Source: an uncultured Bacteroidales bacterium
GTDB taxonomy: Bacteria > Bacteroidota > Bacteroidia > Bacteroidales > UBA4417
Assembly: GCA_903879715.1 (NCBI GenBank)
Contig: CAIRMR010000040.1
Location: 7,119 to 71,118 of the forward strand
Length of the DNA stretch: 64,000 nt
Direction of reading: 5' to 3'
Shown here: positions 7,868-59,928 of the stretch, one piece after another
How positions within the stretch are numbered: position 1 is the stretch's first letter
How the letters are laid out: each line of letters starts with the position of its first letter
Program-made: the position numbers and the translations under genes
Notes under the pieces: generated by a model
What the model saw: only the letters and a program-made list of their open reading frames with translations
The model's database searches: none
Told to the model about the DNA's origin: nothing

Positions 7868-7880
7868 CTGTTGTTTTTTG

Positions 7881-8060
7881 ATTTTTTACGGGTCAGATGG
7901 AATATGCCATGATGAACCCTAATATCTCCTTCGGTTGGTGTTTTCAAATCATGGCTATTTCATGCGTTCTTATTTATTTTTACGGGTTGCATGGAATACG
8001 CAATGATTAAGATTAATAAAGTCATTGGATTCTTTTTTACAATCATGGCTATTTCATTGC
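7881..8060. repeat. Two tandem copies of a module of about 93 bp downstream of the LpxH-like gene
   Basis: TTTTACGGGTCAGATGGAATATGCCATGATGAA...CAAATCATGGCTATTTCAT is matched by TTTTACGGGTTGCATGGAATACGCAATGATTAA...ACAATCATGGCTATTTCAT. Copy 2 ends in the stop codon region (8054). Copy 1 contains the 8-bp inverted pair GCCATGAT/ATCATGGC; in copy 2 the left arm is degenerate (CAATGATT). Confidence 0.7.
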
Positions 8061-14332: not shown

Positions 14333-14378
14333 CAAAATTCCGATCTTAATATTAACTAAATGTTAATTTATTGTTATG
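14333..14378 (-). promoter_or_regulatory. Candidate Pho box (three phased heptamers) plus -7-like box upstream of the TonB receptor 11459..14320
   Basis: Minus strand reads CATAACA ataa ATTAACA ttta GTTAATA, then 9 nt, then GAATTTTG. ATG 14320 lies 12 nt after the box. Confidence 0.55.
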
Positions 14379-14473
14379 ATTAAGAAATTCGCTCTTAACA
14401 TTATAATAATCTGATAACCAAACTAAAAGCAAGTATTCATAAAATCAGGCTATTAATAATTTGTTCCAATATC

Positions 14474-16135: not shown

Positions 16136-16160
16136 AGCTTTCGTTTTTCAACTTATATAT

Positions 16161-16196
16161 AAAAGCCGGCTCCTAATTGAGCCGGCTTTTACTTTT
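16161..16196 (+). terminator. Rho-independent terminator after the T9SS protein gene
   Basis: AAAAGCCGGCTC ctaatt GAGCCGGCTTTT followed by acTTTT. Confidence 0.8.
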
Positions 16197-16390: not shown

Positions 16391-16436
16391 AGAAACATCT
16401 AGTTAACAATTTGTTAACATACAAGAATTAATTTTG
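16391..16436 (+). promoter_or_regulatory. Candidate Pho box plus TAnnTTTG box upstream of DUF47-pit
   Basis: AGAAACA tcta GTTAACA attt GTTAACA, then 9 nt, then TAATTTTG (16429-16436). This is a perfect 7-4-7 direct repeat. Confidence 0.6.
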
Positions 16437-18243: not shown

Positions 18244-18711
18244 TGAGTGACTTATTCTGTTACCATATACATAACTATTTTTAGTTTTATTAATCAAAGT
18301 ACTATTATAGCCTGATATTCAGAATATATTTTTTTCTCATGGAAAGTAATTCAGCAGTAATAAGTATAAAATAATGTCGTTGCAAGAGTTAGATTACACT
18401 TACTCAGGCAGCAATTGGAACCAATAAGCAAACTTCCCTCTAAAATATGTCCGTGCATTTTTGTTGAGTAAGCGTCATTCGGAAATTGGGGCTAAAGACA
18501 CGAAAATACGTTTTCAATAACATGATGTTATAGGTTTTCCAGTAAAACAGCTAAAACAAAATGTGTTTGGATATAAGCTTTTATTCTCAAATTGTGTGAT
18601 TGAGAAGCAAAAACGATTACTTTTATTCAGAAAAAAACGGATTCGTCTGGGATTTTGCCTGAGTCCTAATTTTCTGTAAATCAGCATATCCGGATGTATA
18701 CACTTTCTAAA

Positions 18712-18781
18712 CTTAACAATTATTTAACATTGGAGTAATTGGTAAGTAATACTTGAGCAGTTACTTTACATAAATTTAACA
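18712..18781 (+). promoter_or_regulatory. Candidate Pho box region upstream of pstS
   Basis: CTTAACA atta TTTAACA ttgg AGTAATT ggta AGTAATA (starts 18712, 18723, 18734, 18745). A second, out-of-phase pair is CTTTACA taaa TTTAACA (18764, 18775). At the expected offset only a weak -7 box (TACTTTAC) is present. Confidence 0.45.
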
Positions 18782-18802
18782 TAGTTAATAGTGCTATAAA
18801 TC

Positions 18803-19621: not shown

Positions 19622-19675
19622 TCCTGATACATTAGCGATATAGCCCCATAAAAATAACTAAGCGAGTATAAATAA

Positions 19676-19771
19676 AGGTTAAGGCTAAGGTTAAAGAAGA
19701 ACAGGAAAGACCTCAATCTGTCACCCTTAGCGAAGTCGAAGGGTCAACCTTAACCTCAACCTCAACCTAAG
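19676..19771 (+). repeat. Nested hairpin in the pstS-pstC spacer built from GGTTAA/CCTYAA words
   Basis: Left arm AGGTTAAGGCTAAGGTTAAAG pairs with right arm CCTTAACCTCAACCTCAACCT at 17 of 21 positions. They enclose an inner hairpin ACCCTT agcgaagtcg AAGGGT (19723-19744). Confidence 0.65.
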
Positions 19772-19850: not shown

Positions 19851-21062
19851 ATGACCAAAGCCAGAAGAATATACGAGAAGATTGTTACCGGCATACTGTT
19901 TTCAAGCAGTACTATCACCAGTCTTACGGTTATACTTATTATTGTTTTCCTTTTCAGGGAAGGGATAGGGCTTTTCAACAGCACACCAACCGAGAAAAAT
20001 TATGTTATTGCCGTTAGCCGCCAGAACACTATACCAATCATCACATCCAATGAGTTAGCCGATATTTTTAACCAGGATATAACAAACTGGAAACAACTTG
20101 GAGGTAGAAATGATAGCATTGTGCGTTTAACATTGAACGATCTGTCAGGAATTTTTACAGAAGAAGAACTTGGCCCTGATCTCGAATTTTTCCCTCAAAA
20201 ATTAAATGAATTTGTAAAAACCACGCCCGGTGTAATTCTATATCTTTCAAAAGAATATCTTCCGAAAAATTTTGCAGGCAGGATTATTCCTGTTAAAAAA
20301 ATTACACTACTGGATTTTATTTTCGGAAAGCATTGGTACCCAACTTCGTCACCAATACCACAGTTTGGGATCTGGCCAATGATAGTAGGCACTTTAATGG
20401 TAACCTTAGGTGCCATACTGTTCGCGCTTCCTTTTGGGATGGCAACTGCCATTTTTATGTCGGAAATTGCTGGTAACCGTTTGCGTAATATAATGAAACC
20501 TGTTGTTGAACTGCTGGCAGGGATTCCATCAGTGGTATATGGATTCTTTGGACTTGTAGTACTGGTACCTCTTATACAAAGTCTCTTCGGACTTGATGTT
20601 GGTGAAACTGTGCTCGCCGGAAGCATTGTATTGGGCATAATGGCTTTACCCACCATAGTTACTGTAGCCGAAGATGCTCTTCATGCTACACCGCAGTCTC
20701 TCAGGGAAGCAAGCCTTGCCTTGGGCGCTTCTGAATTGCAGACTCTGGTCAGGGTAGTTATACCTTACTCAAAATCAGGAATTTCCACAGCAGTAATTCT
20801 CGGTACAGGCCGTGCAATAGGCGAAACAATGGCAGTTTTAATGGTAACCGGCAACTCTACACATGTTAATTACTCATTTCTACAACCTACCCGCACCATT
20901 CCAGCCACTATAGCGGCCGAACTTGGTGATACATCGTTTGGAGGAGTACATTATAATGCATTGTTTGCACTGGCAATCGTTCTTTTCCTCTTCACTATTA
21001 TAATTAACCTTTCTGTGGAGGTAATCAAAAACAGGAATCAAAGAGTTAACCAACGAGGTTAA
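19851..21062 (+). CDS. pstC: Phosphate ABC transporter permease PstC with an enlarged first periplasmic loop
   Basis: 403 aa. The permease core carries the EAA-type loop (ALPTIVTVAEDALHATPQSLREASLALGAS). About 110 extra residues between TM1 and TM2 contain a PstS-like ITNWKQLGG segment. Confidence 0.88.
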   Translation: MTKARRIYEKIVTGILFSSSTITSLTVILIIVFLFREGIGLFNSTPTEKNYVIAVSRQNTIPIITSNELADIFNQDITNWKQLGGRNDSIVRLTLNDLSGIFTEEELGPDLEFFPQKLNEFVKTTPGVILYLSKEYLPKNFAGRIIPVKKITLLDFIFGKHWYPTSSPIPQFGIWPMIVGTLMVTLGAILFALPFGMATAIFMSEIAGNRLRNIMKPVVELLAGIPSVVYGFFGLVVLVPLIQSLFGLDVGETVLAGSIVLGIMALPTIVTVAEDALHATPQSLREASLALGASELQTLVRVVIPYSKSGISTAVILGTGRAIGETMAVLMVTGNSTHVNYSFLQPTRTIPATIAAELGDTSFGGVHYNALFALAIVLFLFTIIINLSVEVIKNRNQRVNQRG

Positions 21063-21177: not shown

Positions 21178-22035
21178 TTGAATACAAAACAACTCAAACA
21201 AAAAATAGCCTTTACCATCTTCGGAATGATGAGTTTCGTAGTCGTGGCAATATTGGTTATTATACTGGGGTTCATTGCAATCAGAGGTATTGGAGTTATT
21301 AGTTGGGAGTTTTTAACTACTGCGCCGAAAGAAGGAATGACCAAAGGAGGGATTTTCCCGGCAATAGTTGGAACCGGTTGTCTGGTAATCGGTAGTATGG
21401 TATTTGCTTTCCCTGTGGGGATACTTTCGGGAATATATATACACGAGTACCTGTCGGAAAATTGGCTGAAGAAATTTTTACGCATGATGACCAATAACCT
21501 GGCGGGCGTCCCATCTATTGTTTTCGGGTTGTTTGGGATGGCACTTTTTGTGAATTATCTTAAATTCGGGGATTCCATTCTAGCAGGATCACTTACACTT
21601 GGCATACTCGCCCTGCCTGTTGTGATCCGGTTAACGGAAGAAGCATTAAAAGCAGTTCCGGATGGACTTCGGCTGGGAAGTTACGCATTGGGAGCCAGCA
21701 AGATACAAACTATCCAAAAAGTAGTTCTGCCTGTTGCTTTCCCAAATATACTTACTGGCCTGATCCTCTCGATAGGCCGAGTCTCCGGTGAGACTGCGCC
21801 AATTTTGTTTACTGTGGCTGCTTATTTTCTTCCACGGCTTCCGGAAAGCATCAGTGACCAGGTGATGGCGTTGCCTTATCATTTGTATGTATTGGCAACG
21901 AGCGGTACCAATATGGAGGAAACCCGGCCTATGGCTTATGGCACTGCATTGGTACTTGTTTCAATAGTTCTCATTATTAATTTATCTGCCAGCTTGTTAC
22001 GACGTCAGATACACAAAAAGACTAAAATGCATTAA
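21178..22035 (+). CDS. pstA: Phosphate ABC transporter permease PstA
   Basis: 285 aa with a TTG start. LALPVVIRLTEEALKAVPDGLRLGSYALGASK, SGETAPILFT. Position between pstC and pstB. Confidence 0.88.
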   Translation: MNTKQLKQKIAFTIFGMMSFVVVAILVIILGFIAIRGIGVISWEFLTTAPKEGMTKGGIFPAIVGTGCLVIGSMVFAFPVGILSGIYIHEYLSENWLKKFLRMMTNNLAGVPSIVFGLFGMALFVNYLKFGDSILAGSLTLGILALPVVIRLTEEALKAVPDGLRLGSYALGASKIQTIQKVVLPVAFPNILTGLILSIGRVSGETAPILFTVAAYFLPRLPESISDQVMALPYHLYVLATSGTNMEETRPMAYGTALVLVSIVLIINLSASLLRRQIHKKTKMH

Positions 22036-22038
22036 AAA

Positions 22039-22226
22039 GTTCAACTTTGTTCAAGGTTCAAAATTGTTCTAAATATAAATCGAACCTTAAGCTTTATCCA
22101 AATACATCTAAAACACCATGAACATTTGAACCCTTAAACCTTTGAACCTTTGAACCTTTGAACCTTTGAACCTTGAACCTTGAACCTTTGAAACTTTGAA
22201 CCTTTGAACCTTGAACCTTGAACTTC
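22039..22226 (+). repeat. Inverted tandem-repeat hairpin in the pstA-pstB spacer (unit TTGAACCT(T), about 13 copies)
   Basis: Left block GTTCAAGGTTCAA (22049-22061) is the exact complement of TTGAACCTTGAAC. That sequence occurs in at least four registers in the right block (22119-22226). Confidence 0.8.
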
Positions 22227-22256
22227 TAATCCCCAAAGACTAAAGCCTACGAATAG

Positions 22257-23009
22257 ATGACGCACGCGGAAGTAAAAAATATAAATGTCTGGTATGATAC
22301 TATTCATGCTTTAAAGGATGTTAGCCTGAAATTTGAGCCAAATACTGTTACAGCGCTGATAGGCCCGTCAGGTTGCGGAAAGTCTACTTTTCTCAGAATG
22401 TTTAACCGCATGAATGATCTGATTCCCTCATTCCGTATGGATGGTACTGTTATGGTAAACGATCAGGATGTTTATTCAAAAGAAATACGCATCGATGAAA
22501 TCCGGAAAAATGTAGGGATGGTTTTTCAAAAACCAAATCCGTTTCCAAAGTCAATTTTCGAAAATGTAGCATACGGACTCAGGGTAAATGGGAGTAATAA
22601 CAAAGCATTTATTGAAGAAAGGGTCGAACGATCGCTAAGGCAATCGGCTCTTTGGGATGAAGTTAAAGATGTATTAAAAAAATCAGCACTGGAACTCTCG
22701 GGTGGGCAGCAACAACGCCTTTGTATAGCCAGGGCACTTGCCGTTGAGCCAAAACTTATCCTGATGGATGAGCCTGCAGCATCTCTCGATCCCATTTCGA
22801 CTGCACGTATTGAGGATCTTATTTTTGAATTAAAAAAAACTTACACTATCATACTTGTTACACACAACTTGCAACAGGCAGGCCGAATAAGCGATTTAAC
22901 AGCATTTTTTTACATGGGAGAACTGATAGAATACAACATGACAAAGAAAATATTTCTTAATCCTGATAATATTCAGACTCAAAATTACATAACAGGAAGA
23001 TTTGGTTGA
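22257..23009 (+). CDS. pstB: Phosphate ABC transporter ATP-binding protein PstB
   Basis: 250 aa. Walker [10 protein letters not shown], signature [15 protein letters not shown], Walker [11 protein letters not shown]-loop VTHN. Confidence 0.95.
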
Positions 23010-24581: not shown

Positions 24582-24587
24582 GTTTAA

Positions 24588-24700
24588 TTTACGATTGACG
24601 AATGACGATATAAGAATGAGGTTGCTTACTTATTTAATCGTAACTCGTAACTCGTAAATCGTAACTCGTAAATCGTAACTCGTAAATCGTAAATCGTAAC
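24588..24700 (+). repeat. Inverted tandem-repeat hairpin in the phoB-phoR spacer (7-nt unit TCGTAAM)
   Basis: Left block has 3 units, TTTACGA TTGACGA ATGACGA (24588-24608). Right block has 9 units of TCGTAAC/TCGTAAA (24638-24700), complementary to the left units. Confidence 0.8.
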
Positions 24701-31374: not shown

Positions 31375-31458
31375 TAAATTCTTTATTTAATTAAAATCTC
31401 TATTAACTCCCTGAATATTAGGATGGAAGATAGCTTCAGATCAATTTCGTTTTTTCTG

Positions 31459-31597
31459 ATTTGAATTTGGATTGTCTACTATCTCCGATTCCACTTTGTC
31501 ACAGTCTTCTCTGATTGTGTATACTTGTTAATAATACTTTTCTTCTCAATCCCCAAATCCCCAAATCCCCAAATTCTCAAATTCTCAAATCCTCACA
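31459..31597. repeat. 8-nt tandem repeat (TCCCCAAA x3, TTCTCAAA x2, TCCTCACA) with a partially complementary upstream block
   Basis: The tandem block spans 31543-31597. GATTTGAATTTGGATTG at 31459-31475 is roughly its complement. Lies between convergent genes. Confidence 0.65.
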
Positions 31598-31605
31598 TTA
31601 TCATT

Positions 31606-37471: not shown

Positions 37472-37610
37472 GAAGTTAATGGTTAATAGAAAATAGTTAA
37501 TGGGAATCAGAATTCTGCTATTAATTACAATTTCAATATTGCAAAATCGACTTCAACTATTTTCTATTTTCCACTCACTATTTTCAATTAACTATTTTCA
37601 ATTAACTACC
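37472..37610. repeat. Inverted word-repeat hairpin in the gcvT-comB spacer
   Basis: AATAGAAAATAGTT (37485-37498) is the exact complement of AACTATTTTCTATT (37555-37568). Both arms are made of repeated GTTAATGG / ACTATTTTC words. CAGAATTCTG palindrome sits in the loop. Confidence 0.75.
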
Positions 37611-53423: not shown

Positions 53424-53616
53424 CTCATTTATGCGTATGAAGGGATAAACTTCTCGTCCCTTCATCCAATATAAAATGAAAAAAGCTGCAAAAAAGCAGC
53501 TTTAAACTCATTTGTGCGGATGAAGGGTCTTCCCTCCTGCGTCGGGATAAACTTCTCGTCCCTTCATCCAATATAAAATGAAAAAAGCTGCAAAAAAGCA
53601 GCTTTAAACTCATTTG
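53424..53616 (-). repeat. Two degenerate tandem copies of the module (tRNA-Leu 3' end plus trailer plus terminator)
   Basis: CTCATTTGTGCGGATGAAGGG begins at 53610 (true tRNA) and 53507 (copy). CTCATTTATGCGTATGAAGGG begins at 53424 (copy). The identical segment ATAAACTTCTCGTCCCTTCATCCAATATAAAATGAAAAAAGCTGCAAAAAAGCAGCTTTAAA follows in both copies. Confidence 0.85.
53578..53605 (-). terminator. Terminator hairpin immediately 3' of tRNA-Leu; a duplicate lies at 53476..53503
   Basis: Minus strand reads AAAGCTGC tttttt GCAGCTTT TTT. Confidence 0.7.
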
Positions 53617-53698
53617 TGCGGATGAAGGGACTCGAACCCATACGTCTCACGACACCAGATCCTAAGTCTGGCGCGGCTACCAATTACGCCACATCCGC
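53617..53698 (-). tRNA. tRNA-Leu (anticodon UAG), type II with long variable arm
   Basis: The reverse complement folds as GCGGATG-TG-(D arm GCG/CGC)-CCAGA CTTAGGA TCTGG-(variable arm GTC GTGA GAC)-T arm ATGGG TTCGAGT CCCTT-CATCCGC-A. It is 82 nt with no encoded CCA. There is one T-T mismatch in the T stem. Confidence 0.85.
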
Positions 53699-54259: not shown

Positions 54260-54300
54260 GTTTTTGAAAGTTTAGTTATATTTATAAAAATAAGTGTCAA

Positions 54301-54581
54301 TCAATTGTTGAGGATTGAGTTAATGGGGAGTTTTGAGTTGGCTGAGTTGTCATTCAATGGTCATTCAGTTGTTGGGGATTGAGTTATTGGAGAGTTTTGA
54401 GTTGGCAGGGTTGTCATTCAATGGTCAATCAATGGTCATTCAATTGTTGATGAACGAGTTGTATGGTAGATCAAGATGACAAGTGGTCATTCGTGGTCAT
54501 TCAATTGTTGATGAAAGAGTTGTCCGGTAGATTAAGATGACAAGTGGTCATTCGTGGTCATTCAATTGTTGAAGGTTGAGC
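54301..54581. repeat. Minisatellite: two copies of a unit of about 62 bp, then 2.4 copies of a 61-bp unit, rich in GTCATTC words
   Basis: The unit ...GATTGAGTTAATGGGGAGTTTTGAGTTGGCTGAGTTGTCATTCAATGG has a near-copy. TCATTCAATTGTTGATGAACGAGTTGTATGGTAGATCAAGATGACAAGTGGTCATTCGTGG (54437) is repeated at 54498, with a partial copy at 54559. Confidence 0.8.
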
Positions 54582-54699
54582 AATTTGAGTGTCAGAGTAA
54601 GTAGAGTTTTCATTTGATTACATTAATCAGTCATTTAGTCTTCATTCTATTGTTACAGAATTTTGTATAAAGATTTTGAACAGATATCATCATTTCTGA

Positions 54700-54760
54700 T
54701 TCCAATAACTATTTTTCCAATAACTTTTTCCACTAACTATTTTCTATTTTCCAATAACCT
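54700..54760. repeat. TCCAATAAC / ACTATTTTC word block immediately 3' of the GH3 fusion gene stop
   Basis: TTCCAATAACTATTTTTCCAATAACTTTTTCCACTAACTATTTTCTATTTTCCAATAACC. Contains the 19-mer AACTATTTTCTATTTTCCA (54735-54753), identical to 37555-37573. Confidence 0.8.
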
Positions 54761-54770
54761 ATAACTACTA

Positions 54771-58069: not shown

Positions 58070-58345
58070 GTTCATTCAGTAGTCTTTCAGTAGTCATTCA
58101 GTAGTTTTTCGATGGTCATTCAGTAGTCATTCGATGGTCATTCAGTAGTTATTCAGTAGTCATTCGATGGTCATTCAGTAGTCATTCAGTTGTCATTCAG
58201 TAGTTTTTCGATGGTCATTCAGTAGTCATTCGATGGTCATTCAGTAGTCATTCAGTAGTCATTCGATGGTCATTCAGTAGTCATTCAGTAGTCATTCAGT
58301 AGTTTTTCGATGGTCATTCAGTAGTCATTCGATGGTCATTCAGTA
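58070..58345. repeat. Tandem array of 25 units of 11 nt (GTCATTCAGTA / GTCATTCGATG / GTTTTTCGATG) with a 99-bp (9-unit) higher-order period
   Basis: Manual unit-by-unit parse. After a first 12-nt unit, 24 units of exactly 11 nt run from 58082 to 58345. The GTTTTTCGATG variant recurs at 58104, 58203 and 58302. Confidence 0.9.
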
Positions 58346-58524
58346 GTTGCTTGGGAAATGGGATTTGGGTATTTTTTATTCCATATTTCAATTCAAAGTC
58401 ACAAATCAAAAATCACAAGTCGCAAATTAAAAATCACAAATTCAAGATTAATAGTATCAAACCAAAATCATCCATTGTCCAAGTTTCACCATTTTACGCT
58501 CTTTCATCAACAAAAACCACCAAC

Positions 58525-59928
58525 TTGAAAAAAGTCGTCAGAAATAAAATAAGGTACATTTCTATTTTAATTATGCTGTTTTGGGCATTTGGTGCTGGAG
58601 CTCAGAACCAGCCTCCTGTTGTTCAGAAAACACCGCCAACAACCCGGATTCTTTTTATTTTTGATGCTTCGCAGAGCATGCTGGGCAGATGGCAAAGCGA
58701 TACGAAATTTAATATAGCCAAGCGAATTATGTCGGAAATGCTTGATAGCATTGCCAACCTGAAGAATGCGGAATTTGCATTACGGGTTTATGGACACCAG
58801 TTCCAATATCCGCCCCAGGTTTGCAGCGACACAAAGCTGGAAGTACCTTTTGCTCCGGGAAATGTTGGAAAAATCAAAAGTAGGTTGCGTACAATAAATG
58901 CAAGAGGAACCACACCACTTGCTTTTTCGCTGGAACAATCAGCCAAAGACTTTCCCCCTTGTGCCAACTGCCGTAATATTGTGGTTCTAATTACCGATGG
59001 CATGGAAGAATGCAGCGGCGATCCATGTGCGGTATCAAAAATGCTTCAGAAAAACGGGATTATCCTGAAACCTTTTATAATAGGTATAGGGCAGGATTTT
59101 AACCTGGCTTTCAATTGCATTGGCACCTATTTTGATGCGTCAAGCGAAAAAGATTTAAAAAAAGCATTAAACGTTGTTATATCACAGGCGCTTAATTCAA
59201 CCACCATGCAGGTCAACCTGCTTGATGAATCGGGCAGACCTACTGAAACCGATGCAGGTATGACTTTTACCGATTTGTATTCAGGTAAAATAAAGTACAA
59301 CTATATCCATACCATGAATAACCGCGGTTTACCCGACACATTGGTCGTTGATCCACTGGTAACCTATCGTGTTGACATTCATACATTACCCCCGGTAGTT
59401 ATTGATACACTTCGGATTACACCCGGGAAACACACAGTTGTCGCAACAGATGCGCCGCAAGGATACCTGCAATTGAAAATGGCCGGTGTGAGCAACGCGT
59501 CAAAAGGATTGCAATCGATTGTCAGAAAAAGCAAGACAATGCAAACGCTCAATGTTCAGAATTTCGGAGAAACGGAAAAGTACATTACCGGCAAATACGA
59601 TCTGGAAGTCCTTTCATTACCACGTATTTCATTAAATGACATTGATATCAGACAAAGTCATACAACAACTATCGAAATACCTGAACCTGGAATAGCTGTG
59701 TTCAGAAAATCATTTAACGGGTATGGCACTTTATTGCTTAACGATAAAAACAAGCTTACCCGGATTTATGAACTTAATGAAACCCTCACGCTGGAAACAC
59801 TTTATCTCCAACCTGGCAGTTACCGTATTGTTTTCCGGCCGAAAAACTCCCGATCTACTTTATATACAGTTGAACAAAGCTTCATAATCGAATCCGGAAA
59901 AACAACTGACATTCAATTATATAAGTAG
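58525..59928 (+). CDS. Secreted von Willebrand factor type A (vWA) domain protein
   Basis: The ORF track starts at 58351, but those first 58 codons read through simple-repeat DNA. In-frame TTG 58525 gives MKKVVRNKIRYISILIMLFWAFGAGAQ (ATG 58573 is an alternative start). MIDAS motif ILFIFDASQSM, later ARGTTPL and VLITDGMEE. Confidence 0.7.
   Translation: MKKVVRNKIRYISILIMLFWAFGAGAQNQPPVVQKTPPTTRILFIFDASQSMLGRWQSDTKFNIAKRIMSEMLDSIANLKNAEFALRVYGHQFQYPPQVCSDTKLEVPFAPGNVGKIKSRLRTINARGTTPLAFSLEQSAKDFPPCANCRNIVVLITDGMEECSGDPCAVSKMLQKNGIILKPFIIGIGQDFNLAFNCIGTYFDASSEKDLKKALNVVISQALNSTTMQVNLLDESGRPTETDAGMTFTDLYSGKIKYNYIHTMNNRGLPDTLVVDPLVTYRVDIHTLPPVVIDTLRITPGKHTVVATDAPQGYLQLKMAGVSNASKGLQSIVRKSKTMQTLNVQNFGETEKYITGKYDLEVLSLPRISLNDIDIRQSHTTTIEIPEPGIAVFRKSFNGYGTLLLNDKNKLTRIYELNETLTLETLYLQPGSYRIVFRPKNSRSTLYTVEQSFIIESGKTTDIQLYK

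What the first reader, a model, noticed from the sequence alone, without database searches (positions are those of the whole stretch)
22036..22256. The pstA-pstB spacer holds a multi-register zipper: about 13 tandem TTGAACCT(T) units facing a short complementary block
A 221-bp spacer inside an otherwise tight ABC-transporter operon is unusual. The 13-nt GTTCAAGGTTCAA (22049-22061) can pair perfectly with at least four different registers of the downstream tandem array (22166, 22173, 22204, 22211). This gives alternative hairpins with different loop sizes. The same design recurs with different k-mers at 24588-24700, 37472-37610 and 31459-31597: a short block of k-mer repeats, a spacer, then a longer block of the complementary k-mer. 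I do not know a described element family with this architecture, in which each locus has its own sequence. The tandem block is also expected to be length-variable.
Basis: seen in the sequence. Interest (0 to 1): 0.65.

Follow-up and report, generated by a model that had tools for sequence, protein, structure and literature searches.

The report
Repeat-built hairpin between phosphate transporter genes
The gap between two phosphate-transporter genes of an uncultured lake Bacteroidales bacterium holds a fast-changing run of 8-letter repeats that can zip onto a short complementary block right after the upstream gene; such hairpins are known from cyanobacteria and Haemophilus, and here they follow one consistent layout in many Bacteroidota operons.

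Summary
Window 22119-22223 holds 13.6 tandem TGAACCTT units with a 38-nt higher-order period. The 13-mer at 22049-22061 has exact complements at the four stated registers. Such arrays are absent from shuffled spacers and from 54 kb of coding DNA. The complementary block is a 31-nt interrupted arm that starts 4 nt after the pstA stop codon. In the predicted ensemble it is about 100% paired with the array, in two registers 38 nt apart (0.70 and 0.30). The array alone is essentially unstructured. An independent assembly is identical over 6.7 kb except for a clean 38-nt deletion in the array. A 99% relative has expanded either arm. Relatives at 96-97% have no repeats here. Across Bacteroidota pst/pho loci, arrays obey a polarity: G-rich next to the upstream stop codon, G-poor next to the downstream start codon (p about 1e-4). 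About a third of array-bearing spacers have specifically complementary arms. My best reading is a slippage-built, hypervariable intercistronic mRNA stem-loop with an unstructured leader. The closest known relatives are the cyanobacterial STRR hairpins and the Haemophilus hmw 5'-UTR repeat hairpin. Function is inferred, not shown; a non-adaptive by-product remains a serious rival. I rate it a new variant of a known kind.

The parts
21178..22035 (+). pstA (phosphate ABC transporter permease). Its stop codon TAA lies at 22033-22035.
   Evidence: Pfam BPD_transp_1, E = 1.9e-22. Homologues are named PstA by NCBI and JGI.
22039..22069 (+). G-arm: an interrupted 31-nt block of GTTCAA-type units. The paired segments are 22039-22044, 22049-22062 and 22066-22069. 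It starts 4 nt after the pstA stop codon.
   Evidence: In the partition function each segment is 0.83-1.00 paired, and always with the downstream array. The 13-mer 22049-22061 has exact complements at four array positions.
22070..22118 (+). Loop region between the arms. It holds one degenerate array-type unit, TCGAACCTTAAG.
   Evidence: Sequence reading and the MFE structure.
22119..22223 (+). C-arm: a tandem array of 13.6 x TGAACCTT with a 38-nt higher-order period. The two docking registers for the G-arm are 22160-22185 and 22198-22223.
   Evidence: TRF. Register probabilities are 0.70 and 0.30. The array alone folds at only -2.5 kcal/mol over 105 nt, against a mean of -18.7 for same-length pieces of the window. 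One 38-nt unit is deleted in L185.
22224..22256 (+). G-poor single-stranded leader in front of pstB.
   Evidence: Sequence reading. G is generally depleted upstream of start codons in this genome: 8% at -20..-1.
22257..23009 (+). pstB (ABC ATPase).
   Evidence: Pfam ABC_tran, E = 2.8e-32.
19675..19770 (+). Sister element in the pstS/pstC spacer. G-arm AAGGTTAAGGCTAAGGTTAAAG (19675-19696), a loop, then a C-arm (TCAACC/TTAACC)n at 19744-19770.
   Evidence: TRF. A 9-nt exact complement, empirical fraction 0.01. The C-arm is 42 nt longer in L082.
24586..24700 (+). Sister element in the phoB/phoR spacer. G-arm AATTTACGATTGACGAATGACGAT (24586-24609) starts 5 nt after the stop codon. C-arm (TCGTAAM)9 lies at 24636-24700.
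   Evidence: TRF. A 10-nt exact complement, 0 of 417 null tiles. The same spacer carries paired arms built from other units in L083, L172 and L090.
37474..37605 (-). Sister element between gcvT and a 2-phosphosulpholactate phosphatase gene, both on the minus strand. On the RNA strand a G-rich array (TTAGTTGAAAATAG)n abuts the stop codon (37554-37605). The G-poor arm CCCATTAACTATTTTCTATTAACCATTAACT (37474-37504) precedes the start codon.
   Evidence: A 14-nt exact complement, 0 of 417 null tiles. MFE -35.1, z = -5.25. Pfam.
31458..31603 (.). Weak candidate between convergent genes: GATTTGAATTTGGATTG (31458-31474) and (AATCCCCA/AATTCTCA)n (31548-31603).
   Evidence: Only an 8-nt exact complement, fraction 0.14. 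Folds are not significant on either strand.

Best explanation
The element is a hypervariable intercistronic stem-loop whose arms are short tandem repeats, in effect an STRR-like hairpin. It is created and resized by replication slippage and acts, if at all, in the pst mRNA.

Shown:
- The DNA gains and loses whole repeat units faster than it accumulates point substitutions.
- Either arm can expand.
- Close lineages lack the element.

Predicted from sequence:
- In a transcript reading pstA to pstB, the 31-nt G-arm that begins 4 nt after the pstA stop codon zips onto one of two registers of the array. The array is otherwise unstructured.
- This loops out about 90-150 nt. It leaves the rest of the G-poor array plus a 33-nt G-poor leader single-stranded in front of pstB.

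Inferred:
- The stem serves as an intercistronic processing or stability element, either an RNase III target or a 3'-exonuclease barrier. It would set pstB-phoU expression relative to pstSCA.
- The open G-poor tract provides the unstructured leader that Shine-Dalgarno-independent initiation in Bacteroidota needs.
- Because the short arm finds a partner in any register, the hairpin survives copy-number change. Loop and leader length vary with copy number, giving heritable fine-tuning.
For: - Real and non-random arrays and arms.
- The G-arm is about 100% paired with the array, in two registers 38 nt apart. Fold z = -4.1.
- The array alone is unstructured: -2.5 kcal/mol over 105 nt, lower 1% of window pieces. 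Units are less self-pairing than most permutations of themselves.
- Strand-specific polarity in 57 arrays of Bacteroidota same-strand spacers. G-rich arrays lie near the stop codon 16 times and near the start codon 3 times. C-rich arrays lie near the stop 4 times and near the start 17 times (Fisher p = 9e-5).
- Cognate arms are specifically complementary in 12 of 34 array spacers, against 1.7 expected.
- Stems begin 0-12 nt after the stop codon and end 3-38 nt before the start codon.
- At the phoB/phoR spacer, complementarity is retained while the unit sequence differs between lineages: window, L090, L083 and L172.
- Length polymorphism: one 38-nt indel against 0 substitutions in 6.7 kb. Arm expansions in L082. 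Copy-number differences among L083-L088 and between L176 and L177.
- No intrinsic terminator and no Bacteroidetes -7 box in the spacer, which fits read-through transcription.
- One RNA-seq contig spans an analogous array spacer in a Bacteroides MAG (weak).
- Experimental precedent for the design: the hmw 5'-UTR (PMC12721329). Precedent for intercistronic repeat hairpins: PMC2670836.
Against: - There are no transcript data for this organism. Transcription through the spacer, pairing and processing are all inferred.
- The element is dispensable for the operon. Lineages with 96-97% PstA identity have 103-110-nt repeat-free pstA/pstB spacers.
- About two thirds of array-bearing spacers have non-complementary arms. 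The hairpin therefore cannot be the sole reason the arrays exist.
- Sense-strand duplexes are not stronger than antisense ones, so there is no sign that pairing is optimised for the sense RNA. That test is confounded by G-U-rich antisense arrays.
- G-depletion upstream of start codons is general in this genome. Half of the polarity could therefore be a mere filter on what is tolerated.
Confidence: 0.45

Rival explanations
1. Non-adaptive by-product. Slippage-prone repeats expand in dispensable operon spacers. Complementarity arises and is renewed by intramolecular template switching between the arms of a quasi-palindrome. Selection only filters out what harms neighbours, such as G-rich or structured sequence near start codons or any array inside genes. 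The hairpin itself does nothing useful.
For: - Rapid gain and loss, and absence in 96-97% relatives with an intact operon.
- Most array spacers are not complementary.
- General G-depletion upstream of start codons explains the start-proximal half of the polarity.
- There is no sense-strand optimisation of pairing.
Against: - Stop-proximal arrays are G-rich and C-poor 16:4, although sequence after stop codons in general is not. A one-sided filter does not predict this.
- Arrays are unusually free of self-structure, even those next to stop codons.
- Paired arms recur at the same spacer in four lineages with different units.
- The stems consistently clamp the stop codon to the start region.
- The experimentally studied analogue is functional (PMC12721329).
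Confidence: 0.3
2. Rho-loading array with an anti-rut arm. The long, unstructured, C>G array would be a Rho utilisation site in the untranslated spacer and would cause polarity on pstB-phoU-phoBR. The G-arm masks part of it. Array length then sets the strength of intra-operon termination.
For: - The array is 105 nt, with C 25% against G 12%, and is essentially unstructured.
- No intrinsic terminator occurs anywhere in the pst/pho spacers.
- Start-proximal arrays are generally C-rich and G-poor.
Against: - The G-arm covers only about 26-31 of 105 nt, so masking would be slight.
- C-richness is modest.
- There are no data on Rho dependence.
- Many start-proximal arrays are A/T-rich rather than C-rich.
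Confidence: 0.1
3. DNA-level element. The array would be an internal promoter, a binding-site array for a regulator or nucleoid protein, or a spacer-length phase-variation switch.
For: - The unit contains TTTG, which is part of the Bacteroidetes promoter consensus (my own knowledge).
- Copy number varies.
- The 11-nt-period arrays elsewhere in the window are close to the DNA helical repeat.
Against: - There is no TAnnTTTG -7 box in the spacer.
- The Pho-box-like repeats lie upstream of pstS and the pit operon, not here.
- Other loci use unrelated units without TTTG.
- The strand polarity relative to genes points to the RNA rather than to duplex DNA.
Confidence: 0.05
4. Assembly artefact of a low-complexity region.
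For: Contigs of relatives often end inside such arrays (L082, L085-L087). One array is masked by N in L084.
Against: - Three independent assemblies carry the same element: the window, the Logan contig L001 and the JGI contig L185. Their flanks are base-for-base identical.
- The 105-nt array is shorter than typical reads.
- The design recurs in many unrelated assemblies.
Confidence: 0.02

Closest known systems
Cyanobacterial STRR (short tandemly repeated repetitive) hairpins between cistrons, for example hupS-hupL in Anabaena, Nostoc and Lyngbya (PMC2670836). From memory, not retrieved here: Mazel et al. 1990, and Jackman & Mulligan 1995 on 'highly variable but structured' nif intergenic regions.
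   Same: Tandem units of about 7 nt lie in intergenic spacers of operons. They can form a hairpin. They are variable between close strains. The proposed roles are transcript stability or translational coupling, and the function is unproven.
   Different: STRR units are a few heptamers shared genome-wide; here the units are largely locus-specific (6-14 nt). The phylum differs. The polarity seen here, with a G-rich arm after the stop codon and a G-poor arm before the start codon, is not part of the STRR description as far as I could find.
Haemophilus influenzae hmw1A/hmw2A 5'-UTR repeat hairpin processed by RNase III (PMC12721329).
   Same: A G-free heptamer array, (ATCTTTC)n, pairs with a shorter G-rich block to give a long hairpin. 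Extra repeats leave the hairpin unchanged. Copy number is polymorphic. Copy number tunes expression there; that is inferred here.
   Different: The hmw element is the 5'-UTR of a monocistronic adhesin gene in a host-adapted pathogen, not an intercistronic spacer. The arm order is reversed: array 5', G-rich block 3'. RNase III cleavage and phenotypes are demonstrated there and untested here.
TAACTGA heptamer arrays upstream of start codons in Beggiatoaceae, Cyanobacteria and five Bacteroidetes (MacGregor 2015, PMC4679880), and the 5-11-nt long simple sequence repeats of Mrazek et al. 2007 as cited therein.
   Same: Intergenic short-period arrays lie in forward orientation just upstream of start codons. 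They are predicted to be unstructured, are absent from close relatives, and occur in Bacteroidetes.
   Different: That work concerns one conserved heptamer. No complementary arm and no stop-proximal partner array is described.
REP/BIME intercistronic palindromes of enterobacteria.
   Same: They are stem-loops in operon spacers that can modulate the stability of the upstream mRNA segment.
   Different: REPs are a conserved dispersed sequence family. They are not tandem k-mers and are not length-hypervariable. No dispersed copies of this element's arm exist in the window.

Membership tests
STRR-type intercistronic repeat hairpin | Tandem array of short (about 7 nt) units | tested here: met
   Period 8 (7 in part), 13.6 copies. 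Sister loci have periods of 6-14.
STRR-type intercistronic repeat hairpin | Intergenic, between co-oriented cistrons | tested here: met
   The spacer lies between pstA and pstB on the same strand. Across the Bacteroidota loci, 78 arrays are intergenic and 5 are coding.
STRR-type intercistronic repeat hairpin | Oppositely oriented repeat blocks able to form a stem-loop | tested here: met
   The G-arm is about 100% paired with the array in the ensemble. z = -4.1.
STRR-type intercistronic repeat hairpin | A small set of heptamer sequences shared by many loci of the genome; heterocystous cyanobacterial host | tested here: not met
   Units differ by locus: TGAACCTT, TCGTAAC, TCAACC, CTATTTT and others. 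The host is a Bacteroidales MAG.
hmw-type SSR hairpin riboregulator | A G-poor SSR pairs with a G-containing complementary block, and the pairing is insensitive to extra repeats | tested here: met
   The 38-nt deletion variant keeps one docking register.
hmw-type SSR hairpin riboregulator | SSR copy number polymorphic between strains | tested here: met
hmw-type SSR hairpin riboregulator | Repeat region transcribed as part of the mRNA | tested here: inconclusive
   No RNA runs exist for this organism. One RNA-seq contig spans an analogous spacer in L006, but DNA carry-over cannot be excluded.
hmw-type SSR hairpin riboregulator | RNase III cleavage of the hairpin; expression depends on copy number | not testable with these tools
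   This needs end mapping in wild type against an rnc mutant, and reporter assays.
Intrinsic (Rho-independent) terminator | Short G+C-rich stem followed by a U-tract | tested here: not met
   No terminator-like site occurs in 22036-22256 or in any pst/pho spacer. A clear one lies at 16160-16191.
Dispersed palindromic elements or MITEs (REP-like) | The same sequence at many loci; terminal inverted repeats or target duplications; a curated RNA family | tested here: not met
   The arm 13-mer occurs once in 64 kb. Rfam matches nothing in the window except a tRNA.
Start-proximal unstructured heptamer arrays (TAACTGA type) | Forward orientation just upstream of a start codon; predicted unstructured | tested here: met
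   The array ends 33 nt before the ATG. It folds at -2.5 kcal/mol over 105 nt.
Start-proximal unstructured heptamer arrays (TAACTGA type) | The unit is TAACTGA | tested here: not met
   The unit is TGAACCTT.
Rho utilisation site | At least 70 nt of unstructured RNA with C>G | tested here: inconclusive
   Composition and lack of structure fit. Rho dependence is not testable here.
Classical contingency-locus SSR (phase variation) | SSR inside an ORF or between promoter elements, switching a gene on and off | tested here: not met
   The array is not in an ORF. No promoter motif flanks it.

The most novel reading that the evidence does not exclude
Bacteroidota operon spacers may follow a general repeat 'grammar'. 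A G-rich, C-poor tandem array starts at or within a few nucleotides of the upstream stop codon. A G-poor tandem array ends a few nucleotides before the next start codon. The two are often complementary, so the folded spacer clamps the stop codon next to the start region. In a phylum that does not use Shine-Dalgarno pairing, this could be a hitherto unrecognised, rapidly evolvable device for coupling or rationing translation and mRNA stability between cistrons. Slippage would act as the tuning knob.
Probability: 0.18. Interest if true: 0.8.

Novelty: new variant of a known kind. Interest (0 to 1): 0.55.

Why it matters
Three points would follow if the RNA-level role is real.

- It would give a simple, mutationally cheap mechanism by which uncultured freshwater Bacteroidales retune the stoichiometry of a phosphate-uptake operon. 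Phosphate is the limiting nutrient in lakes.
- It would extend the single experimentally studied case of a repeat-versus-G-block hairpin (Haemophilus hmw) to a widespread intercistronic design.
- The polarity rule is directly testable in genetically tractable Bacteroides or Flavobacterium. It bears on how cistrons are expressed in a phylum without Shine-Dalgarno-led initiation.

There is also a practical consequence. These arrays break assemblies and are strain markers: they are the only difference in 6.7 kb between two assemblies.

Tried and rejected
They returned only relatives of 80% identity or less. They were useful as a Bacteroidota outgroup but not for close comparison. Close relatives came from the protein search plus contig look-ups instead.
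- The RNA run search for the window found nothing. The only RNA run for an analogous locus is contig-level and weak.
- Rfam found no family.
- Intrinsic terminator: rejected.
- Internal Bacteroidetes-type promoter: no -7 box.
- The sense-versus-antisense duplex comparison, meant as a test for RNA-level selection, was inconclusive. It is confounded by G-U-rich antisense arrays.
- Whole-spacer fold z-scores for pstS/pstC and phoB/phoR are only about -1.3 to -1.45. Their local arm complementarity is nevertheless significant.
- One contig look-up returned no DNA. It concerned a 97% relative with a 272-nt pstA/pstB spacer.

Full report
**1. The observation**

The spacer 22036-22256 (221 nt) lies between two co-oriented genes. 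The upstream gene is a BPD_transp_1 permease (21178-22035). The downstream gene is an ABC ATPase (22257-23009).

The wider neighbourhood is a phosphate cluster: DUF47/PhoU_div, PHO4 (Pit), pstS, pstC, pstA, pstB, phoU, a response regulator, a histidine kinase, and a TonB-dependent receptor. The pstA/pstB labelling is therefore right.

- Tandem Repeats Finder reports 22119-22223 as 13.6 copies of TGAACCTT at 89% matches. It also reports a 38-nt higher-order period.
- The reverse complement of GTTCAAGGTTCAA (22049-22061) occurs exactly at 22166, 22173, 22204 and 22211, and nowhere else in the window.
- The longest complement between the array and its flank is 14 nt. The maximum over 417 other 300-nt tiles is 10.
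- The spacer folds better than dinucleotide shuffles, with z = -3.1 to -4.1.
- The window's intergenic regions hold 8 short-period arrays. There are none in 30 dinucleotide shuffles of those regions, and none in 54 kb of coding DNA.

The statement that the operon is otherwise tight is not. Its other spacers are 229, 115, 106, 104 and 192 nt.

**2. Anatomy**

It is a 31-nt interrupted arm with three paired segments: 22039-22044, 22049-22062 and 22066-22069. It starts 4 nt after the pstA stop codon.

- Each segment is 0.83-1.00 paired, and always with the array.
- Only two registers carry weight: 22160-22185 (0.70) and 22198-22223 (0.30). They are exactly one 38-nt higher-order unit apart.
- The array alone is almost structure-free. 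It folds at -2.5 kcal/mol over 105 nt. Same-length pieces of the window average -18.7.
- The units of this and other arrays pair with themselves less than most permutations of the same letters. For the 11-nt unit GTCATTCAGTA, 0 of 200 permutations were as unstructured.
- After the array comes a 33-nt G-poor leader and then the ATG.
- No intrinsic terminator-like site lies in any pst/pho spacer, although a clear one lies at 16160-16191.
- No Bacteroidetes-type -7 box (TAnnTTTG) lies in the pstA/pstB spacer.
- Rfam finds nothing in the window except a tRNA.

**3. Recurrence in the window**

The same layout occurs at four further places.

| Location | Evidence |
|---|---|
| 19675-19770 (pstS/pstC) | 9-nt complement, empirical fraction 0.01 |
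| 24586-24700 (phoB/phoR) | 10-nt complement, 0 of 417 null tiles |
| 37474-37605, minus strand (gcvT / phosphosulpholactate phosphatase) | 14-nt complement, 0 of 417 null tiles; fold z = -5.25 |
| 54260-54770 | less clear |

Other arrays have no complementary partner. These are 41698, 58072-58348 and 58394-58441.

**4. Origin, and strains of the same population**

The sequence comes from lake-water metagenomes.

- A Logan contig (L001) is identical across the spacer.
- A JGI contig of 57 kb (L185) is identical to the window over 3,858 nt upstream and 2,817 nt downstream. The single exception is a clean 38-nt deletion, exactly one higher-order unit, inside the array. This removes one of the two docking registers and leaves the other.
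- In L082 (PstA 99% identical), the pstS/pstC C-arm is 42 nt longer. In its pstA/pstB spacer the G-arm has itself become a long array, (GTTGTTCAAAG/GTTGTTCAAGG)n. The contig ends inside that array.

Both arms can therefore expand. Repeat-unit indels outpace substitutions.

**5. Sister lineages**

- Lineages at 96-97% PstA identity (L083-L089, L172-L175) have 103-110-nt pstA/pstB spacers and 66-70-nt pstS/pstC spacers without repeats. The element is therefore dispensable for the operon.
- Their phoB/phoR spacers nevertheless carry the same design with other units. L083-L088 have (GYGATAAT)n after the stop codon, facing (…ATTATCACATTA…)n before the start codon. L172 pairs TAATGTGCTAATGCGATAAT with (CACATTAGCAC)n. 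L090 (89% identity) has TTGACGATTTAC…TACGAAT facing (TTCGTAAA)n, as in the window.
- Copy numbers differ between contigs that encode the identical PstA. Examples are L083, L084, L085 and L088, and L176 against L177.

**6. Beyond this lineage**

I ran TRF on all fetched loci. The same layout appears in pst/pho operon spacers of distant Bacteroidota (65-80% protein identity). These include a Paludibacter MAG (L002), a Bacteroides MAG (L006), a Flavobacteriales MAG (L013) and several metagenome contigs that I take to be of termite-gut origin from their names (L103-L109, L121, L140). I did not verify that origin.

- **Location.** With simple gene calls, 78 arrays are intergenic and 5 are coding, although intergenic DNA is 11.5% of the bases.
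- **Polarity.** On the coding strand the arrays are polar. G-rich arrays lie next to the upstream stop codon 16 times and next to the start codon 3 times. C-rich, G-poor arrays lie next to the stop 4 times and next to the start 17 times. Fisher p = 9e-5; Spearman rho = -0.52. Many stop-proximal arrays begin at or inside the stop codon.
- **Complementarity.** I ran a permutation test of the 5' half against the 3' half of each spacer. The null used non-cognate halves from other loci. Complementarity is cognate-specific in 12 of 34 array-bearing spacers at the 5% level, against 1.7 expected. Roughly half show none, for example L104, L109, L121 and L140.
- **Geometry.** Where the arms pair, the duplex begins 0-12 nt after the stop codon and ends 3-38 nt before the start codon. 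The whole spacer is looped out and a short G-poor leader stays free.
- **Background composition.** G-depletion upstream of start codons is general in this genome: 8% G at -20..-1, also in spacers without arrays. There is no general G-enrichment after stop codons.

**7. How it most likely works**

Three things are shown.
- The arrays are real, intergenic and strand-polar.
- They are unstructured on their own.
- They are extremely length-variable, and in this spacer one arm is predicted to dock on the other in two registers.

Everything at the RNA level is inferred. My preferred reading (0.45) has four steps.
- Slippage builds and resizes the arrays.
- In the polycistronic pst transcript the G-arm, directly after the pstA stop codon, zips onto the array. 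This forms an intercistronic stem that acts as a processing or stability element.
- The remaining G-poor tract is the open leader that Shine-Dalgarno-independent initiation in Bacteroidota requires. That requirement is established knowledge of the phylum, cited from memory, and it fits.
- Because any register serves, the stem is robust to copy-number change, while loop and leader lengths vary.

The strand polarity, the lack of self-structure, the stop-to-start clamp and the retention of pairing with changed units at phoB/phoR all favour an RNA-level constraint.

Four points count against it.
- The element is dispensable (section 5).
- Most arrays lack a partner.
- Sense duplexes are not better than antisense ones (a confounded test).
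- There is no transcript evidence for this organism. The only related evidence is one RNA-seq contig spanning an analogous spacer in L006. It carries a 14-nt insertion in the G-arm.

The rivals are:
- a non-adaptive slippage and template-switch by-product, filtered only by leader composition (0.30);
- a Rho-loading array partly masked by the G-arm (0.10);
- a DNA-level promoter or binding array (0.05);
- an assembly artefact (0.02).

**8. Comparison with what is known**

- **STRR hairpins.** Hairpins made of about 7-nt tandem repeats between cistrons are described in filamentous cyanobacteria (STRR; hupS-hupL). The suggested roles are transcript stability or translational coupling (PMC2670836).
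- **hmw 5'-UTR.** In Haemophilus influenzae a G-free (ATCTTTC)n array pairs with a G-rich block to form a long hairpin. RNase III cleaves it, and the hairpin is needed both for expression and for repeat-number change (PMC12721329).
- **TAACTGA arrays.** Intergenic heptamer arrays lie directly upstream of start codons. They are predicted unstructured and are absent from close relatives. They were reported for Beggiatoaceae, cyanobacteria and five Bacteroidetes (PMC4679880).

The architecture is therefore not undescribed. It works like these systems but is not a member of the STRR family in the strict sense, because its units are locus-specific and the phylum differs. Membership of the hmw type cannot be tested without RNase III and expression data.

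Three things appear to be new.
- The design occurs as an intercistronic feature in Bacteroidota.
- The arrays follow a stop/start polarity rule.
- The stems have a clamp geometry.

Three further literature searches found no description of these points.

**9. Verdict**

This is a real, hypervariable, repeat-built intercistronic hairpin. It is a new variant of a known kind. Interest is moderate (0.55), mainly because of the phylum-wide polarity and the direct testability. Function remains unproven.

Noticed in passing
window 16403-16419, 18713-18729, 18765-18781; also 14366-14393 on the minus strand: Direct repeats TTAACA-N5-TTAACA with 11-bp phasing lie upstream of the DUF47-PHO4 operon and upstream of pstS. 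The first is followed by a TAATTTTG -7-type box at 16429. The pstS copy is conserved in L090, L172 and L176. These look like Pho boxes (PhoB binding sites) of this lineage.
   Followed up: partly
window 53442-53629, next to tRNA-Leu at 53616-53698 (-): A perfect 102-bp tandem duplication (1.8 copies). It includes the 3' end of tRNA-Leu and a downstream terminator-like hairpin (AAAAAAGCTGC…GCAGCTTT). It may be a remnant of integration or excision at the tRNA gene, or a simple duplication.
   Followed up: no
window 54296-54572 and 58072-58348: Long arrays with an 11-nt period (GTCATTCAATG / TCATTCAGTAG; about 25 copies at 58072) and 61-99-nt higher-order periods. They lie in front of a redoxin gene and a VWA-domain gene. 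The unit is exceptionally free of self-pairing: 0 of 200 permutations were as unstructured. The period is close to the DNA helical repeat.
   Followed up: partly
window 58351-59928 (+): The mechanical ORF start (TTG at 58351) is almost certainly too far upstream. The first roughly 60 codons translate the CAAATCA array. A signal-peptide-like sequence begins near codon 60. The arrays at 58072-58441 are therefore all 5' of the true start codon.
   Followed up: partly
window 22119-22185, as laid on run X3: TTGAACCTT-type arrays reach an assembler depth of about 20,000 in one lake metagenome, on hundreds of short contigs with unrelated flanks. The same unit is therefore amplified elsewhere. The source could be other bacterial loci or possibly a eukaryotic satellite. 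Loose ends also show neighbouring (GAAAATA)n arrays.
   Followed up: no
L083-L089 2315-3346 (-), against window 18244-18802: The 96% lineage carries a Porin_O_P (phosphate-selective porin) gene between PHO4 and pstS. The window has only a 559-nt non-coding stretch there. This is gene gain or loss inside the pho cluster between close relatives.
   Followed up: no
L064 7425-7653 (Vicinamibacterales MAG): An acidobacterial pst locus also has facing complementary arrays, (GTTCCG)n … (CCGGAAC)n. Repeat-built hairpins are therefore not confined to Bacteroidota.
   Followed up: no
window 7868-8053: Two imperfect direct copies of about 90 nt (TTTTTACGGGT…ATGGAATA…CAATCATGGCTATT) lie between two minus-strand genes. 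Their nature is unknown.
   Followed up: no
Bacteroidota loci, stop-proximal arrays: Many stop-proximal arrays begin at or inside the stop codon. Examples are (GAATTAA)n, (TAAGAAT)n, (TGATTAA)n and (TGATAAAA)n. Their units contain stop codons that fall in all three frames because the period is 7 or 8. Slippage there would never extend the upstream protein far. This is unexplained, and it may be one reason these arrays are C-poor.
   Followed up: no
window 19851-21062 (+): pstC is unusually long at 403 aa. Its N-terminal extension gives a weak PBP_like_2 match (E = 7e-4).
   Followed up: no
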